Assembly (NCBI GenBank): GCA_036446035.1 | Contig: JAZFSG010000078.1 | Location: 2,674-66,673 of the forward strand | Direction of reading: 5' to 3' | Origin: Acidimicrobiia bacterium | GTDB taxonomy: Bacteria; Actinomycetota; Acidimicrobiia; Spongiisociales; JAOTWH01 | Length of the DNA stretch: 64,000 nucleotides | In this document: positions 5,929 through 56,792 of the stretch, in pieces | Layout: the number at the start of each line of letters is the position of its first letter | Numbering within the stretch: the first letter of the stretch is position 1 | The notes under the pieces: model-generated | The model's input: only the letters and a program-made list of their open reading frames with translations | Told to the model about the DNA's origin: nothing | Databases searched by the model: none | Position numbers and translations under genes: made by a program

Positions 5929-6360
5929 TCAGGCGGCCTCCTTGACGACGAGTAGATCGCATTCGGCGATATGGATCAGCCGATGACTGGTACTACCCAG
6001 TACCAACGAAGCTACTGCGCCGCGACCCCTACTCCCCACCACGATCATGTCTGCCTCGTGCTCGTTGGCGTACTTCACGACGGCGTCCGCCGGGTACCCC
6101 TCGAGATCTACCTGCTTCGAGTCGACCCCCTCCAGGATGGGCCCGATCCGCTCCCAGACGGCATCTCGCTCCAGCCGCATGATCTCGGCTGAGGCGTCAG
6201 GGACTGCTCCCATTGCCGCGTACACGGTGGCCGGAATGTGGACCGCATGGACGGCATGCACGGACGTGCTCAGGCGCTTGGCCAAAGAAACTGCCTTGTG
6301 GGCCGCGACCTCGGAACCGGTTGAGGCGTCGACGGCTACAACGATCATCTTTCCTCCCAT
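5929..6360 (-). CDS. universal stress protein (UspA family)
   Basis: IVVAVD...GSRGRG...GSTS motifs. An alternative start at ATG 6348 gives an ATGA overlap with the response-regulator stop. Confidence 0.85.
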   Translation of the reverse strand: MGGKMIVVAVDASTGSEVAAHKAVSLAKRLSTSVHAVHAVHIPATVYAAMGAVPDASAEIMRLERDAVWERIGPILEGVDSKQVDLEGYPADAVVKYANEHEADMIVVGSRGRGAVASLVLGSTSHRLIHIAECDLLVVKEAA

Positions 6361-7010
6361 GACTCGGGCGGCATGCGGTGATCGTTTTCTGCATTACGGC
6401 GAGCCGCATAGGCCGCGACCTCGCTGCGTCGGCTCATTCCGAGCTTGGCGAGGACATTCGACACGTAATTCTTGACTGTCTTCTCTGCAAGGAACATGCG
6501 CTCAGCGATCTGGCGGTTGGTGAGGCCCTCGGCCAGGTTCTCGAGGATGTTTCGCTCCTGGGGCGACAGCCGCGCCAGGAGTGGATCGTCCTTCTCGCCG
6601 CGGATACGGCGGAACACGCTGTCGACCAATACCGGGTCGAGGAGCGATTCCCCGCTGCCGACCTTTCGAATGTTCTCGACGAGCTCGTCGCCGGCGACTC
6701 TCTTCAGGACGTACCCGGAGGCCCCAGCCATGATCGATGCATACAGCGCCTCATCATCGGCGAACGAGGTGAGCATGAGCACCTTGATGTCGGGCCACTG
6801 CTCCTTGATCTGACGACAGGCGTCAACTCCGCTGCCGTCGGGAAGCCGAACATCCACCACGACAACGTCGGGCGCCTTGTACCCGACGACCCTGACGGCG
6901 TCGAAGACCGTGCCGGCCTCGCCAACAACTTCCATGTCATCTTGAGACCCGACGAGGGCGGATAGCCCTGCTCGGACCACCTCATGGTCATCAACAAGTA
7001 CAACCTTCAT
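6345..7010 (-). CDS. devR: NarL/LuxR-family response regulator, DevR/DosR-like
   Basis: REC domain (LVDDHEVVR, DVRLPDGSG) plus an HTH segment (IAERMFLAEKTVKNYVSNVLAKLGM) nearly identical to M. tuberculosis DevR as I recall it. Confidence 0.85.
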   Translation of the reverse strand: MKVVLVDDHEVVRAGLSALVGSQDDMEVVGEAGTVFDAVRVVGYKAPDVVVVDVRLPDGSGVDACRQIKEQWPDIKVLMLTSFADDEALYASIMAGASGYVLKRVAGDELVENIRKVGSGESLLDPVLVDSVFRRIRGEKDDPLLARLSPQERNILENLAEGLTNRQIAERMFLAEKTVKNYVSNVLAKLGMSRRSEVAAYAARRNAENDHRMPPESWEER

Positions 7011-7038
7011 TCAGGGTCAGGCTACCCATGGTGCGCCC

Positions 7039-7061
7039 TGGTCATCACGGCCTTATGACCC
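7039..7061. promoter_or_regulatory. inverted repeat TGGTCA-N11-TGACCC in the devR / kinase divergent promoter
   Basis: Read directly from the sequence. It shares GGTCA/TGACC half-sites with 7014..7019 and 7071..7084. Confidence 0.3.
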
Positions 7062-7070
7062 TGTCGAGCC

Positions 7071-7084
7071 TGGTCAAATGACCC
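7071..7084. promoter_or_regulatory. 6-2-6 palindrome TGGTCA-AA-TGACCC, candidate DevR-type box
   Basis: GGTCA-NN-TGACC arms are perfect. Lies 17 nt upstream of the kinase ATG. Confidence 0.35.
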
Positions 7085-7100
7085 TGTAGCCTCGGCAGCG

Positions 7101-8189
7101 ATGGATCGACTTCCGGCAACCGTTCGTCAGCTCGTCGAGGCCGCGGCCCTAGTCGCTGGCCAGGCCGACCTCTCCGATGTATTGCGCACGACGATACGCA
7201 CGGCGATGGAGTTGACGGGAGCCGCTTACGGTGCGCTCGGGGTCATCGGGAGTCACGGCGTATTGACCGACTTCATTTTCGAAGGCATGGACCGCGAGAC
7301 CGCGGACCGGATCGACCACCTGCCGGTCGGCAAAGGGGTGTTGGGGGCCATGGGCGAGATCCCCCTCAGGCTCGAGGACCTCACCACCCACCCGGACGCC
7401 GTTGGCATGCCGGCCAACCACCCGCCGATGACGTCGTTCCTCGGTGTCGCTGTCAGGTTGGGCTCCGACACGATCGGCAACCTCTACCTGACGAACAAGG
7501 CGGACGGTCCATTCTCCGAGGAGGACGAACTCCTGGTGCAGGCACTGGCAGTCATCGCCGGCTCCGCAGTGTCACGGGCCCGTTTGGAGCGTCGCCTGGA
7601 GCGGGCGGCCCTCATCGAGGACAGAGAGCGGATCGCTCGCGACATCCATGACGGCGTCATCCAGGAGCTGTTCGCAGTCGGACTGGCCCTGCAGGCCACC
7701 AGAGGTACCGACTCGGCAGAAGCGAGTGAGCGCATTGATCAAGCCGTTGACAGCATCGACGATGCGATGACCAGCTTGCGCGACTACATCTTCGACCTGC
7801 AATCGCAGACCCCCGATTTCGAGGCCCGCCTCCGCGCCGTGCTGTCGACAGCGGCGAGCGAGGCCGACGTGCGAATCGAACTGACCGGCCGGTTCGTAGA
7901 TCTCGACCGACCGATAGCGGACAACCTCACTCACTTCGTCCGTGAGGCTGTCTCTAACGCCGTCCGTCACGCTAGGCCGTCGAAGGTCACCGTCTTCGCC
8001 ATTAACGACGGTGATACCGTGACCGTCGAGGTTGTCGACGACGGCTCGGGTTTCGACCCCACGATGCAGAGCGAAGGCATGGGCCTGGCCAACATGCGCG
8101 AACGCGTCAGCGTCCTTGGCGGGACTTGCGAGATTCGCAGCGAGGTCGGAAACGGCACCACTGCCATAGGTAGTGTCCCCCTGGAGTAG
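7101..8189 (+). CDS. GAF-domain sensor histidine kinase (HisKA_3 / DosS-DosT-like, soluble)
   Basis: N-terminal GAF, H-box RIARDIHDGVIQ, HATPase (DDGSGF, GMGLANMRER). No TM segment. Confidence 0.9.
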   Translation: MDRLPATVRQLVEAAALVAGQADLSDVLRTTIRTAMELTGAAYGALGVIGSHGVLTDFIFEGMDRETADRIDHLPVGKGVLGAMGEIPLRLEDLTTHPDAVGMPANHPPMTSFLGVAVRLGSDTIGNLYLTNKADGPFSEEDELLVQALAVIAGSAVSRARLERRLERAALIEDRERIARDIHDGVIQELFAVGLALQATRGTDSAEASERIDQAVDSIDDAMTSLRDYIFDLQSQTPDFEARLRAVLSTAASEADVRIELTGRFVDLDRPIADNLTHFVREAVSNAVRHARPSKVTVFAINDGDTVTVEVVDDGSGFDPTMQSEGMGLANMRERVSVLGGTCEIRSEVGNGTTAIGSVPLE

Positions 8190-51650: not shown

Positions 51651-55139
<3,489 letters not shown>

Positions 55140-55180
55140 GCCTGTGACAAAGGGCCCTATTGGCAATCGTCGATGATGGC

Positions 55181-55214
55181 GATACTGCTTGTGAAAAGAT
55201 TCACAAGCAGTATC
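55181..55214. promoter_or_regulatory. perfect 34-bp palindrome (15-4-15) with core TGTGA-N6-TCACA
   Basis: GATACTGCTTGTGAA-AAGA-TTCACAAGCAGTATC. Lies 42 nt after the metH stop and 12 nt before ATG 55226. Confidence 0.6.
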
Positions 55215-55225
55215 CGAGGCCAGCA

Positions 55226-55573
55226 ATGAACGAGCCACGACCACCAGCTTGCAGCGAAGCTGACCTACCGGAGCCCCTGCCCCTCAACGAGGAGCGGCTA
55301 GCAGCGATCGCCAAGGGGTTGGCCCACCCGGCGCGCATCAAGATCATCGAACAGTTCCGGGAGGCCCGGCCCCATATGGCACATGAGGTCTTTGAGGGCT
55401 GCGATCTCGCCCAGTCAACGGTCTCGGAGCATCTACGCATCCTCCGCAAGGCCGACATCCTCTTCGCCACCAAGGACGGGTCCCGAACCTGGTATTGCCT
55501 GCGGCGTTCAGTACTGCGGCAGTTCGCCGATGCCGTGGCGGATCTCACTACCGAATGGGTGATGATCAGCTAG
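55226..55573 (+). CDS. ArsR-family winged-helix transcriptional regulator
   Basis: Track ORF trimmed to ATG 55226. HTH LAQSTVSEHLRILRKADIL. Confidence 0.8.
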   Translation: MNEPRPPACSEADLPEPLPLNEERLAAIAKGLAHPARIKIIEQFREARPHMAHEVFEGCDLAQSTVSEHLRILRKADILFATKDGSRTWYCLRRSVLRQFADAVADLTTEWVMIS

Positions 55574-55604
55574 CCGTAGGGCCCGGAGCCTCCAGGATCA
55601 CTGC

Positions 55605-55622
55605 TTGTGATTGCTTTCACAA
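55605..55622. promoter_or_regulatory. palindrome TTGTGAT-TGCT-TTCACAA (imperfect copy)
   Basis: 6 of 7 arm positions match. The left flank CACTGC resembles site 55181. Confidence 0.45.
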
Positions 55623-55631
55623 CATACCGTG

Positions 55632-55659
55632 CCTACTTGTGAATGTATTCACAAGTAGG
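55632..55659. promoter_or_regulatory. perfect 28-bp palindrome (12-4-12) with core TGTGA-N6-TCACA
   Basis: CCTACTTGTGAA-TGTA-TTCACAAGTAGG. Confidence 0.6.
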
Positions 55660-55714
55660 GCCTTTCGACCCTACCCCGTCCTTCGACGATTGCCGATACT
55701 GCGCTTATTGGACT

Positions 55715-55732
55715 TTGTGAAAGAGTTCACAA
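55715..55732. promoter_or_regulatory. perfect 18-bp palindrome TTGTGAA-AGAG-TTCACAA
   Basis: Lies 30 nt upstream of ATG 55762, whose RBS is AAGGAGG. Confidence 0.55.
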
Positions 55733-55761
55733 GCTTTCCAACATAGGCAAGGAGGCCTTAA

Positions 55762-56472
55762 ATGATGAATCGTCTCAGGATCGTCGGGATCATCCTTCTG
55801 GTCATCGGCGTTCTGTTCATGGTCGGAGGCGGCGTCGCCTTCTCCAAGGTGCAAGACGGCTACGGATCACTGGCAGCATTCAGCGAGGCGCAGGGCGTCG
55901 AACTGAGCTACAACGAAGATGGGCAACTGATTGACCGCGGCACCACCGAAGCTGCCGACGCCATCATGACACTGCTCACCGATGACTGGGGATTCAAGCC
56001 CGTCAGCGGGGATCTTGATCCCAACGACCCGTTGGTCAACACGGCCACCGAGTTCATGTTCCAGATGGCAATAGTCAACTACCACGTGCTGCACGGCACA
56101 CAGAATGTGACGCTCGCCGAAGACGTTGAGTACGAAGGCGAAGTCTTCGCAGCTGGAACGTACGAGGTCGAGGTCGACGGTCGTTACTGGACCGATTTCA
56201 ACCGCAGCCACCCGCTCGAGGGACCGGCACGAGGCCAGGCATGGACCGGCACCGTCCACGGACTCGTCGGTGAACTCGGTGTCGGCACCGTCACCCACTC
56301 AGTCCTACAGATCGGCCTTGGCATCGCAGCCATCCTTGCCGGCATCGGCTTCCTGTCGATCCTGACCGGCGGTGGCCTGGTGTGGGCCAGTCGCTCCAAG
56401 GACACGGGCGTGCCGGGAGTACCCGACACGATCCCCGAGTCGATGAGCAAGTTCGCCAGCACGGAGGCATAA
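55762..56472 (+). CDS. membrane protein with N- and C-terminal TM helices and a ~170-aa extracytoplasmic domain
   Basis: ORF track. AAGGAGG RBS. No family recognised. Confidence 0.6.
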   Translation: MMNRLRIVGIILLVIGVLFMVGGGVAFSKVQDGYGSLAAFSEAQGVELSYNEDGQLIDRGTTEAADAIMTLLTDDWGFKPVSGDLDPNDPLVNTATEFMFQMAIVNYHVLHGTQNVTLAEDVEYEGEVFAAGTYEVEVDGRYWTDFNRSHPLEGPARGQAWTGTVHGLVGELGVGTVTHSVLQIGLGIAAILAGIGFLSILTGGGLVWASRSKDTGVPGVPDTIPESMSKFASTEA

Positions 56473-56588
56473 GACTCCTTGCCGGAGGACGGAAGCCACG
56501 GCTTCCGTCGCAGAGGCCCCTTCGGGGGCCTCTGCCGCGTCTGGGACCAGGCCGCGGTGGGGCACCAGCGGTACACTCTCCCGCCTCC

Positions 56589-56662
56589 GGGGGTGTAGCT
56601 CAGCCCGGCAGAGCACTACGTTCGCAACGTAGGGGTCAGGGGTTCAAATCCCCTCACCTCCA
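56589..56662 (+). tRNA. tRNA-Ala (anticodon CGC)
   Basis: Manual fold: acceptor GGGGGTG/CACCTCC with G3:U70, anticodon loop TTCGCAA, T-loop GGTTCAAATCC. CCA is not encoded. Confidence 0.9.
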
Positions 56663-56664
56663 CA

Positions 56665-56792
56665 GAAACAGAGCCGTCCTTGCGCAGCAGGGACGGCTTC
56701 TTGTCTCTCCCCCCAGAGGGGGGGAGTCCCGGGCCGAAGGCCCGTGGGAGGGGGGCTTGGAAACAGAGCCGTCCTTGCGCAGCAGGGACGGC
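56665..56792 (+). repeat. 33-bp direct repeat x2 (period 95 bp), each containing a GCCGTCC/GGACGGC hairpin
   Basis: 56665..56697 equals 56760..56792 (GAAACAGAGCCGTCCTTGCGCAGCAGGGACGGC). The spacer holds two G/C-rich hairpins. Confidence 0.9.

What the first reader, a model, noticed from the sequence alone, without database searches (positions are those of the whole stretch)
55181..55732. Four TGTGA-N6-TCACA palindromes bracketing an ArsR-family gene downstream of metH
Seen in the sequence:
- Site a, 55181..55214, is a perfect 15-4-15 palindrome.
- Site b, 55605..55622, matches 6 of 7 arm positions.
- Site c, 55632..55659, is a perfect 12-4-12 palindrome.
- Site d, 55715..55732, is a perfect 7-4-7 palindrome.
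- All four share the core TTGTGAA-N4-TTCACAA and sit in the only AT-rich stretches of this region.
- Site a lies 12 nt before the ArsR-family ATG. Site d lies 30 nt before the gene for an uncharacterised two-TM protein (55762..56472).

Established knowledge: TGTGA-N6-TCACA is the CRP/GlxR consensus in E. coli, Mycobacterium and Corynebacterium. ArsR/SmtB operators are also TGAA/TTCA-type inverted repeats.

Inference: this is either a four-site CRP/GlxR-type regulatory hub or the operator array of the local ArsR-family repressor. The very long perfect arms of sites a and c could additionally act as RNA hairpins, for example as a metH 3' end.
Basis: partly seen in the sequence, partly recalled or inferred. 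Interest (0 to 1): 0.6.

Follow-up and report, generated by a model that had tools for sequence, protein, structure and literature searches.

The report
Rex redox-repressor operators, not CRP/ArsR sites
The four palindromes are real and are almost certainly binding sites of the NADH-sensing repressor Rex, a well-known kind of switch. In this uncultured Acidimicrobiia bacterium they control a small regulator gene and a widely conserved membrane protein of unknown function, together with a hypoxia (DevR/DosR-type) box.

Summary
In detail: four TTGTGA-N6-TCACAA sites lie at 55189, 55605, 55637 and 55715, against 0.05 expected by chance. The whole 2-Mb MAG holds only eight such sites (at most one mismatch), at five loci.

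The motif equals the footprinted Rex operator, TTGTGAA-N4-TTCACAA.
- The genome encodes Rex. The other sites precede rex itself, the atp operon and a sigma-70-family gene.
- In relatives the same motif precedes whiB-like, nosZ and ndh-like genes.
- In 77 orthologous loci the motif lies 20-125 nt upstream of the two-TM gene at about 230 times background density, with or without an ArsR neighbour.

The CRP reading fails. The only CRP-family regulator is Cmr-like, and no true CRP/GlxR orthologue was found in 61 relatives.

The ArsR-operator reading fails for this motif. A different palindrome (TATCG-N3-ATCG[A/T]CGAT-N3-CGATA) tracks the ArsR gene (18/21 against 6/55 loci).

A third element is a DevR/OsdR-type box, AGGGNC-N4-GNCCCT. 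It sits about 44 nt upstream of the predicted start sites, and a DevR orthologue lies in the same window.

This is a known mechanism in a new setting. All binding is inferred, none was measured.

The parts
55189..55206 (.). Rex operator (ROP) a, TTGTGAAAAGATTCACAA. The extended perfect palindrome is 55181-55214. It covers the predicted start site of the ArsR-family gene, at about -5 to +13.
   Evidence: It is conserved, arms included, in the same-genus genome. Orthologous ArsR genes of other genera carry a ROP at the same place.
55605..55622 (.). Rex operator b, TTGTGATTGCTTTCACAA (one mismatch to the 14 specified positions). It lies about -94 from the predicted two-TM gene start site and 32 bp from site c.
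   Evidence: It is conserved in the same-genus genome.
55637..55654 (.). Rex operator c, TTGTGAATGTATTCACAA (palindrome 55632-55659). It abuts the DevR-type box with a 2-nt gap.
   Evidence: The core is retained with one change in the same-genus genome, but the outer arm is not conserved.
55715..55732 (.). Rex operator d, TTGTGAAAGAGTTCACAA, at about +9 to +26 of the predicted two-TM gene promoter. This is the phylogenetically conserved site.
   Evidence: 53 of 77 orthologous loci have a site with at most two mismatches 20-125 nt upstream of the gene. The density is 7.35 per kb against 0.032 per kb elsewhere.
55143..55158 (+). Weak DevR/OsdR-type box TGTGAC-AAAG-GGCCCT upstream of the ArsR-family gene. 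The right half is perfect; the left half has two mismatches.
   Evidence: The same GTGAC/GGGAC-N4-GNCCC element lies upstream of ArsR orthologues. The consensus comes from PMC5069765.
55158..55184 (.). Second palindrome (M2), TATTG-GCA-ATCGTCGAT-GATGG-CGATA. It is the candidate operator of the ArsR-family protein. It overlaps the putative -10 hexamer GATACT (55181-55186).
   Evidence: ATCG[AT]CGA upstream of the two-TM gene tracks an adjacent ArsR gene: 18/21 against 6/55 loci, Fisher p = 1e-9.
55226..55573 (+). ArsR/SmtB-family regulator gene (115 aa). It has no classic metal site. Cys9 and Cys91 are nearly invariant.
   Evidence: Pfam HTH_20/HTH_5 and NCBIfam NF033788. The PDB relatives are 8qkf and Rv0081. 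The cysteines are conserved in 21/23 and 22/23 orthologues.
55657..55672 (+). DevR/OsdR-type box AGGGCC-TTTC-GACCCT, one mismatch to AGGGCCGATCGGCCCT. Its centre is 42.5-43.5 nt upstream of the predicted start site.
   Evidence: GGGAC-N4-GTCCC (at most one mismatch) is 29-fold enriched upstream of the two-TM gene orthologues. The consensus is, and the -43.5 rule is.
55682..55700 (.). Degraded copy of M2 (TTCGACGAT-TGC-CGATA) overlapping the putative -10 hexamer GATACT (55695-55700) of the two-TM gene promoter.
   Evidence: Inverted repeat I2 and direct repeat D3. The -10 is an inference: the consensus scan found no canonical promoter.
55762..56472 (+). Gene for a 236-aa membrane protein (N- and C-terminal TM helices with a mixed alpha/beta domain of about 120 aa between them). 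It belongs to an orphan family and is monocistronic.
   Evidence: More than 4,600 homologues exist, all 'hypothetical' and without Pfam. The AF2 model has pLDDT 88.8. No PDB fold match was found; the best E-value is 0.17. tRNA-Ala follows at 56589-56663.
6345..7010 (-). DevR/DosR orthologue (response regulator with LuxR HTH), the likely reader of the GGGNC boxes. It lies 48 kb upstream in the same window, beside a GAF-HisKA_3 kinase gene (7101-8189), a USP gene and a CBS-BON gene.
   Evidence: Pfam. E = 6e-64 to M. tuberculosis DevR 3c3w, with an identical recognition helix EKTVKNYVS.

Best explanation
The four palindromes are operators (ROP sites) of the redox-sensing repressor Rex.

At low NADH/NAD+, Rex dimers would occupy site a, across the predicted start site of the ArsR-family gene. 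They would also occupy site d, just downstream of the predicted start site of the two-TM gene. Sites b and c lie 32 bp apart upstream of that promoter, and c abuts the activator box. A rise in NADH, for example under oxygen or electron-acceptor limitation, would release Rex and de-repress both genes.

Both promoters have the same three-part layout: a DevR/DosR(OsdR)-type box about 44 nt upstream of the predicted start, then a separate TATCG...ATCGNCGAT...CGATA palindrome, then the Rex operator. The middle palindrome is the more likely operator of the local ArsR-family protein.

Shown here: sequence identity to the Rex consensus, presence of Rex, the regulon content, positional conservation, and absence of a CRP orthologue. 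Inferred: actual binding, the start sites, repression, and the roles of the DevR box and the ArsR palindrome.
For: 1. The motif is identical to the footprinted Rex consensus 5'-TTGTGAANNNNTTCACAA-3' of Streptomyces (PMC5355995).
2. With only GTGA-N6-TCAC fixed, 62 orthologous sites show T1 90%, T2 78% and A7 84%, which is the TTGTGAA half-site.
3. Rex is encoded in the genome (NF003992 equivalog, 298.7 bits against a cut-off of 226). Rex is present in 42 of 42 good genomes of the order.
4. The four other sites of the genome lie upstream of rex itself, of atpZ and the atp operon, of a sigma-70-family gene, and of a locus on C72. The rex and atp operons are proven Rex targets.
5. 10 of 30 rex loci in other genera have the motif right before rex.
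6. In three near-complete relatives there are only 3-6 sites each, and the reversed-pattern control gives 0. They precede the two-TM gene, the same sigma-factor gene, whiB-like, nosZ and a Pyr_redox_2 flavoprotein gene. wblE and ndh2 are Rex targets in S. avermitilis.
7. 53 of 77 orthologous loci carry the site 20-125 nt upstream of the two-TM gene, about 230-fold above the rest of the loci. 13 of the 14 other sites flank ArsR homologues.
8. Positions relative to the promoter fit known Rex repression sites (-3 to +25 at cydA1). This uses the DevR box at -43.5 and GATACT as the -10.
Against: - No binding or expression data exist.
- The start sites are inferred. The simple sigma-70 scan found no canonical promoter.
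- TGTGA-N6-TCACA is also the CRP core, so a CRP-family protein missing from this 86%-complete assembly, or a Cmr-like protein with changed specificity, cannot be fully excluded.
- 24 of 77 orthologous loci lack a recognisable site, and 20 of 30 rex loci lack one. Control by Rex is therefore lineage-dependent.
- The 15- and 12-nt arms of sites a and c exceed what Rex needs and are not explained by this model alone.
Confidence: 0.85

Rival explanations
1. The sites are bound by a CRP/GlxR-type cAMP receptor protein, making this a four-site CRP hub as in Mycobacterium or Corynebacterium.
For: The core TGTGA-N6-TCACA equals the CRP consensus (PMC5758884). A cNMP-binding plus HTH_Crp_2 protein exists on contig C20.
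Against: - That protein is Cmr-like, not CRP-like (5w5b E 5e-32 against 3h3u 1.5e-12). Its recognition helix is SRQSINE instead of SRETVNK.
- Cmr needs 4C/13G and loses binding on 4G/13C sites. All sites here are 4G/13C.
- No hit to M. tuberculosis CRP exceeds 37% identity in 61 genomes of the order. G048 has none at E <= 1e-5 yet has two sites at its two-TM gene.
- The conserved flanks T1, T2 and A7 are the Rex signature.
- The regulon is tiny and Rex-like: rex, atp, whiB, ndh, nosZ.
Confidence: 0.06
2. The sites are the operator array of the adjacent ArsR-family repressor (autoregulation plus control of the two-TM gene).
For: - They bracket the ArsR gene.
- Loci with an ArsR neighbour carry the motif more often: 19/21 against 28/55.
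- A second site regularly lies upstream of ArsR homologues.
Against: - 28-34 loci have the motif with no adjacent ArsR gene.
- ArsR matches at E <= 1e-10 occur in only 8 of 61 relatives, yet 26 of the 61 have the two-TM gene, nearly all with the motif.
- The same motif precedes rex, atp, sigma-factor, whiB and nosZ genes elsewhere.
- A different long palindrome containing ATCG[AT]CGA is the element that tracks ArsR (p = 1e-9). It also resembles the 12-2-12-type ArsR/SmtB operators better.
Confidence: 0.04
3. Beyond or instead of protein binding, the long stems of sites a and c act as RNA hairpins. Site a would be the 3' end or terminator of metH, and site c that of the ArsR mRNA.
For: - The stems are stable as RNA: site a -27.5 kcal/mol (z -6.7) and site c -17.9 kcal/mol (z -4.4).
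- Site a starts 42 nt after the metH stop; site c lies about 60 nt after the ArsR stop.
- The fifth exact site lies about 30 nt after glyA.
- The arms of site a are fully conserved in the same-genus genome.
- A few orthologous sites also have 11-14-nt arms.
Against: - There is no U-tract, and no terminator-like hit.
- The outer arm of site c is broken on one side without compensation in the same-genus genome.
- Most orthologous sites have only 5-8-nt arms.
- Part of the extension is a family-wide GC flank of the operator.
- No Rfam family matches.
Confidence: 0.2

Closest known systems
Rex operators (ROP) and the Rex regulon of Streptomyces coelicolor / S. avermitilis (PMC5355995)
   Same: The 18-bp consensus TTGTGAA-N4-TTCACAA is identical. 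Autoregulated rex, the atp operon, a whiB-like gene and an ndh-type gene are targets. The operators overlap or follow the start site. The TTGTGCA half-site variant occurs at rex and two other sites, as in the S. avermitilis rex ROP.
   Different: The class is different (Acidimicrobiia). The regulon is very small, at 3-8 strong sites per genome. The most conserved target is an orphan two-TM protein not known from Streptomyces regulons. Four operators sit at one 550-bp locus. No cyd or nuo sites were seen in this incomplete genome.
DosR/DevR-activated promoters of Mycobacterium tuberculosis (hspX) and OsdR sites of Streptomyces (PMC13486717, PMC5069765)
   Same: The box AGGGNC-N4-GNCCCT lies about 43.5 nt upstream of the predicted start, with a weak -35 and a decent -10. 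A DevR orthologue with an identical recognition helix and a GAF kinase is encoded in the same window.
   Different: Here the box is combined with a Rex operator at the start site. I did not find that combination described in the papers I searched. Binding has not been tested.
Rv0081, the ArsR-family regulator inside the mycobacterial DosR regulon
   Same: It is a small ArsR/SmtB-fold regulator without canonical metal sites whose gene sits behind a DevR-type box. It is the second-best PDB relative (6jmi, E 1.4e-6).
   Different: The similarity is only distant. The protein here has two nearly invariant cysteines (C9, C91) and is paired with a membrane protein, not a formate hydrogenlyase operon.
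CRP/GlxR sites (TGTGA-N6-TCACA) of Mycobacterium and Corynebacterium
   Same: The 5-6-5 core is the same.
   Different: No CRP/GlxR orthologue is present. The flanks are conserved as TTGTGAA. The regulon is tiny and redox-type.

Membership tests
Rex operator (ROP) | 18-bp inverted repeat matching TTGTGAA-N4-TTCACAA | tested here: met
   Three sites are exact and one has one mismatch. The consensus is from PMC5355995. Unbiased flank analysis of 62 orthologous sites gives T1 90%, T2 78% and A7 84%.
Rex operator (ROP) | The genome encodes a Rex repressor | tested here: met
   C139:13154, 209 aa, NF003992 equivalog at 298.7 bits against a cut-off of 226. PF06971 is present in 58 of 61 relatives.
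Rex operator (ROP) | Sites lie in promoter regions of energy or redox genes, including rex itself | tested here: met
   In this genome: rex, atpZ-atp operon and a sigma-factor gene. In relatives: rex (10 of 30 loci), whiB, nosZ, a Pyr_redox_2 flavoprotein gene and the sigma-factor gene.
Rex operator (ROP) | Positional conservation at orthologous promoters | tested here: met
   53 of 77 loci; 7.35 sites per kb against 0.032 per kb.
Rex operator (ROP) | Rex binds the site and NADH releases it | not testable with these tools
   This needs EMSA or footprinting with and without NADH/NAD+.
CRP/GlxR binding site | A CRP/GlxR orthologue with the RETV(N/G)(K/R) recognition helix is present | tested here: not met
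   Only a Cmr-like protein with helix SRQSINE was found. The best hit to M. tuberculosis CRP is 37% identity in 61 relatives, and G048 has none. Caveat: this MAG is 86% complete.
CRP/GlxR binding site | Core TGTGA-N6-TCACA | tested here: met
   The core is shared with Rex sites, so it does not discriminate.
ArsR/SmtB operator of the local regulator | The site co-occurs with the regulator gene across genomes | tested here: not met
   The motif is present in 28-34 loci without an adjacent ArsR gene. An ArsR match at E <= 1e-10 occurs in only 8 of 61 relatives, whereas 26 of the 61 have the two-TM gene. The M2 palindrome does co-occur: 18/21 against 6/55.
REP/MITE-like repeat | Many dispersed copies irrespective of promoters | tested here: not met
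   There are eight copies in 1.98 Mb, all intergenic and upstream of genes. Relatives have 3-6 copies each.
Intrinsic terminator | G+C-rich stem-loop followed by a U-tract | tested here: not met
   The stems are stable, but there is no T-run and no terminator-like hit. U-tract-less termination cannot be excluded.
DevR/DosR (OsdR) box | A 16-bp palindrome AGGGNC-N4-GNCCCT, plus a DevR orthologue with the K179/K182/N183 helix | tested here: met
   55657-55672 has one mismatch to the OsdR consensus. The element is 29-fold enriched upstream of orthologues. The DevR orthologue scores E 6e-64 with an identical helix.
DevR/DosR (OsdR) box | Box centred near -43.5 of a mapped start site; phospho-DevR binds it | not testable with these tools
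   Only the distance to a putative -10 (GATACT, within 1 nt of the expected place) could be checked.

The most novel reading that the evidence does not exclude
Across Acidimicrobiia, an orphan two-TM membrane protein (more than 4,600 homologues, no known fold relative) is the most conserved target of a composite promoter. That promoter integrates three redox or hypoxia inputs: a DevR/DosR-type activator box at about -43.5, a Rex operator on the start site, and, where present, the operator of a two-cysteine ArsR-family sensor. The protein would then be a core, still unknown effector of the low-oxygen / high-NADH response in this abundant but largely uncultured class.
Probability: 0.4. Interest if true: 0.55.

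Novelty: new member of a known kind. Interest (0 to 1): 0.33.

Why it matters
It corrects a plausible mis-annotation. TGTGA-N6-TCACA in a high-GC actinobacterium is not automatically CRP/GlxR.

It gives a first outline of the Rex regulon in Acidimicrobiia, a class with hardly any cultured or genetically studied members.

It attaches clear regulatory logic (high NADH plus a hypoxia/NO/CO-type signal) to a very widespread membrane protein family with no annotation. That makes the family's function testable.

The Rex mechanism itself is well known, so the finding is incremental rather than surprising.

Tried and rejected
- **Rex presence/absence as a discriminator.** Rex is universal in the order, so this was uninformative.
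- **Genome-wide scan for GGGAC-N4-GTCCC in the MAG.** The pattern is GC-rich and hits coding sequence; 95 hits were too noisy to define a DevR regulon.
- **Consensus promoter and terminator scan of 55050-55850.** Nothing was found, so the -10 and start-site assignments rest on the DevR-box distance only.
- **Rfam at E <= 1 over 55050-56700.** Only tRNA-Ala and chance hits appeared.
- **Single-sequence AlphaFold of the two-TM protein.** It failed (pLDDT 45). The alignment-based model is good, but Foldseek against the PDB found no relative.
- **REP-like element.** Rejected on copy number.
- **Mobile cassette bounded by the 24-nt inverted repeat 55150-55173 / 55683-55706.** Rejected. The arms are two copies of the palindromic M2/box promoter module, which also occurs at single-gene loci.
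Considered but not adopted. The genome has a single Rex of the canonical NF003992 type, and M2 tracks the ArsR gene.

Full report
**Observation.**
- Site a, 55181-55214, is a perfect 15-4-15 palindrome.
- Site b, 55605-55622, matches 6 of 7 arm positions.
- Site c, 55632-55659, is a perfect 12-4-12 palindrome.
- Site d, 55715-55732, is a perfect 7-4-7 palindrome.

A search for TTGTGA-N6-TCACAA finds these four and nothing else in 64 kb. The expectation from shuffles is 0.05. The window is contig C78 of a 1.98-Mb, 143-contig, 64% GC assembly, about 86% complete. Close relatives are labelled uncultured Acidimicrobiia. Genome-wide there are only five exact TGTGA-N6-TCACA sites and eight sites within one mismatch of TTGTGAA-N4-TTCACAA. 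No site has two mismatches. This rules out a REP-like element and a large degenerate regulon.

**Identity of the motif.** The other four sites lie in these places:
- between glyA and atpZ, the first gene of the atp operon (C63);
- 19 nt upstream of the start codon of a 209-aa ORF (C139);
- 33 nt upstream of a sigma-70-family gene (C23);
- at a locus on C72.

The C139 ORF is Rex: NF003992 equivalog, 298.7 bits against a cut-off of 226. The literature gives 5'-TTGTGAANNNNTTCACAA-3' as the footprinted Rex operator of Streptomyces. Its direct targets include rex-hem, atpIBEFHAGDC, ndh2 and wblE. The S. avermitilis rex operator has a TTGTGCA half-site, as three of my one-mismatch sites do (PMC5355995).

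**Comparative evidence.**
- The 236-aa two-TM protein downstream of site d has orthologues at 58-70% identity in 26 of 61 relatives, spread over about ten families. ArsR matches (E <= 1e-10) occur in only 8 of the 61, and six of those relatives carry one beside the two-TM gene.
- In 77 oriented loci from named genomes, sites with at most two mismatches occur at 7.35 per kb in the -125 to -20 window and at 0.032 per kb elsewhere.
- 53 of the 77 loci have such a site, 34 of them without an ArsR neighbour. 13 of the 14 sites outside that window flank ArsR homologues.
- With only GTGA-N6-TCAC fixed, the flanks are T 90%, T 78% and A 84%. That is the Rex half-site rather than the bare CRP core.
- 10 of 30 rex loci from other genera carry the motif directly before rex and nowhere else in 3 kb.
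- Three near-complete relatives have only 3-6 strong sites each, and the reversed-pattern control gives 0. These sites precede the two-TM gene, the orthologous sigma-factor gene, a WhiB-family gene, nosZ, a Pyr_redox_2 flavoprotein gene, a luciferase-like oxidoreductase gene and a nucleoside phosphorylase gene.

**The CRP rival.** The only protein with both cNMP-binding and HTH_Crp_2 domains (C20, 220 aa) is most like M. tuberculosis Cmr (E 5e-32). It is far from CRP (E 1.5e-12). Its recognition helix reads SRQSINE where CRP has SRETVNK. Cmr prefers 4C/13G and loses binding when those positions are changed to the CRP-type 4G/13C (PMC5758884). All sites here are 4G/13C. A segment of M. tuberculosis CRP finds nothing above 37% identity in 61 genomes of the order. 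It finds nothing at all in G048, which nevertheless has two sites at its two-TM gene and has rex.

**The ArsR rival, and a second palindrome.** The Rex-type motif does not depend on an ArsR neighbour, as shown above. Directly upstream of it, many loci carry a second, long imperfect palindrome, TATCG-N3-ATCG(A/T)CGAT-N3-CGA(A/T)A. Its core ATCG[AT]CGA is present upstream of the two-TM gene in 18 of 21 loci with an adjacent ArsR gene and in 6 of 55 without (Fisher p = 1e-9, not phylogenetically corrected). In the window the good copy is 55158-55184, before the ArsR gene. A degraded copy is 55682-55700. These two copies explain the inverted and direct repeats around the ArsR gene found. I take this element as the more likely ArsR operator. 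The protein lacks the classic alpha-3 and alpha-5 metal sites. It has two nearly invariant cysteines, C9 and C91, which suggests a thiol-based sensor. Its PDB relatives include Rv0081.

**A third element.** AGGGNC-N4-GNCCCT is 29-fold enriched upstream of the two-TM gene and is independent of ArsR. Examples are 55657-55672, AGGGCCTTTCGACCCT, and a weaker copy at 55143-55158. It matches the OsdR/DevR consensus AGGGCCGATCGGCCCT and listed sites such as AGGGACCTTCGGCCCC (PMC5069765).

I confirmed it:
- a response regulator with a LuxR HTH (6345-7010);
- a GAF-HisKA_3 kinase (7101-8189);
- USP and CBS-BON genes.

The regulator scores E 6e-64 to M. tuberculosis DevR and has the identical helix EKTVKNYVS, which carries K179, K182 and N183.

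In hspX the DosR box is centred at -43.5, with a weak -35 and a good -10 (PMC13486717). Applying that rule gives the following.
- The two-TM promoter starts near 55707-55708. GATACT at 55695-55700 is within 1 nt of the expected -10. Site d then covers about +9 to +26.
- The ArsR promoter starts near 55193-55194, with GATACT at 55181-55186. Site a then covers about -5 to +13.
- Sites c and b are centred near -62 and -94 of the two-TM promoter. Site c abuts the DevR box.

These positions are inference. They fit the known placements of Rex operators.

**Hairpins.** As RNA, site a folds at -27.5 kcal/mol and site c at -17.9 kcal/mol, both far beyond shuffles. There is no U-tract. In the same-genus genome the arms of site a are intact, but the outer arm of site c is broken without compensation. 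Most orthologous sites have 5-8-nt arms and a few have 11-14. A weak family-wide GC flank explains part of the extension. A secondary role of site a at the metH 3' end remains possible but is unproven.

**The regulated protein.** More than 4,600 homologues exist, all unnamed and without Pfam. A confident model (pLDDT 88.8) shows two long TM helices bracketing a mixed alpha/beta domain. It has no PDB fold relative. tRNA-Ala follows at 56589-56663, so the gene is monocistronic and DUF3179 is not part of the unit.

**Verdict.** This is a known mechanism (Rex operators) in a little-studied class, at a locus with an unusually rich promoter. Confidence is 0.85 that these are Rex operators, about 0.5 for the DevR-box reading and about 0.5 for the ArsR palindrome.

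Noticed in passing
window 55657-55672 and 55143-55158; L042-L120 about 85-150 nt upstream of the two-TM gene: A DevR/OsdR-type box AGGGNC-N4-GNCCCT is conserved upstream of the two-TM gene. It is 29-fold enriched there and occurs even in loci lacking both the Rex site and ArsR. Some loci have two boxes in tandem.
   Followed up: partly
window 55158-55184 and 55682-55700: The long palindrome TATCG-N3-ATCG[A/T]CGAT-N3-CGATA tracks the adjacent ArsR gene (18/21 against 6/55 loci). It is the candidate true operator of the ArsR-family protein.
   Followed up: partly
genome contig C72:2037-2090: A Rex site (TTGTGCATATATTCACAA) lies next to a DevR-type box (GGGGCTTTGGTCCC), reading towards a 24-codon ORF (MTTKDIVSAADKFNLAEGGQILFI). 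About 700 nt of apparently non-coding sequence follow before a DAO-type flavoprotein gene. The promoter layout is the same as at the two-TM gene. The product is unknown: a small peptide, an RNA, or an assembly frameshift.
   Followed up: no
genome contig C130:9793-9828: Two tandem DevR-type boxes (GGGACCAAAGACCC and GGGACTATCGCCCC) lie 22 nt apart in an apparently intergenic stretch. This may be another DevR target.
   Followed up: no
genome contig C20:11584-12246 (minus strand; L001 1492-2154): The only CRP-family regulator of the genome is a Cmr (Rv1675c)-type protein. In mycobacteria Cmr overlaps the DosR regulon, so it may also feed into this hypoxia network.
   Followed up: partly
L121, L122, L125, L128, L130, L144, L148 (rex loci of other genera): The Rex site begins 5 nt upstream of the position aligned to residue 1 of my Rex and so overlaps it. 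In those genera rex is either leaderless or starts further downstream than the alignment suggests.
   Followed up: no
L164, L168 (G019, G048): In two relatives nosZ (nitrous-oxide reductase) is preceded, about 280-310 nt upstream, by a full Rex site plus an extra TTCACAA half-site. This suggests NADH-dependent control of N2O respiration in these Acidimicrobiia.
   Followed up: partly
window 55571-55579 compared with L041: The ArsR stop codon TAG of the window is CAG in the same-genus genome, which extends the protein there by two residues to the next TAG.
   Followed up: no
window 7011-7100: The divergent devR-kinase promoter carries AGGGTCA-type half-sites (CTGGTCAAATGACCCT and GGTCA-N11-TGACC). 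The first sits in the same 16-mer frame as the GGGNC boxes, which is consistent with DevR autoregulation.
   Followed up: partly
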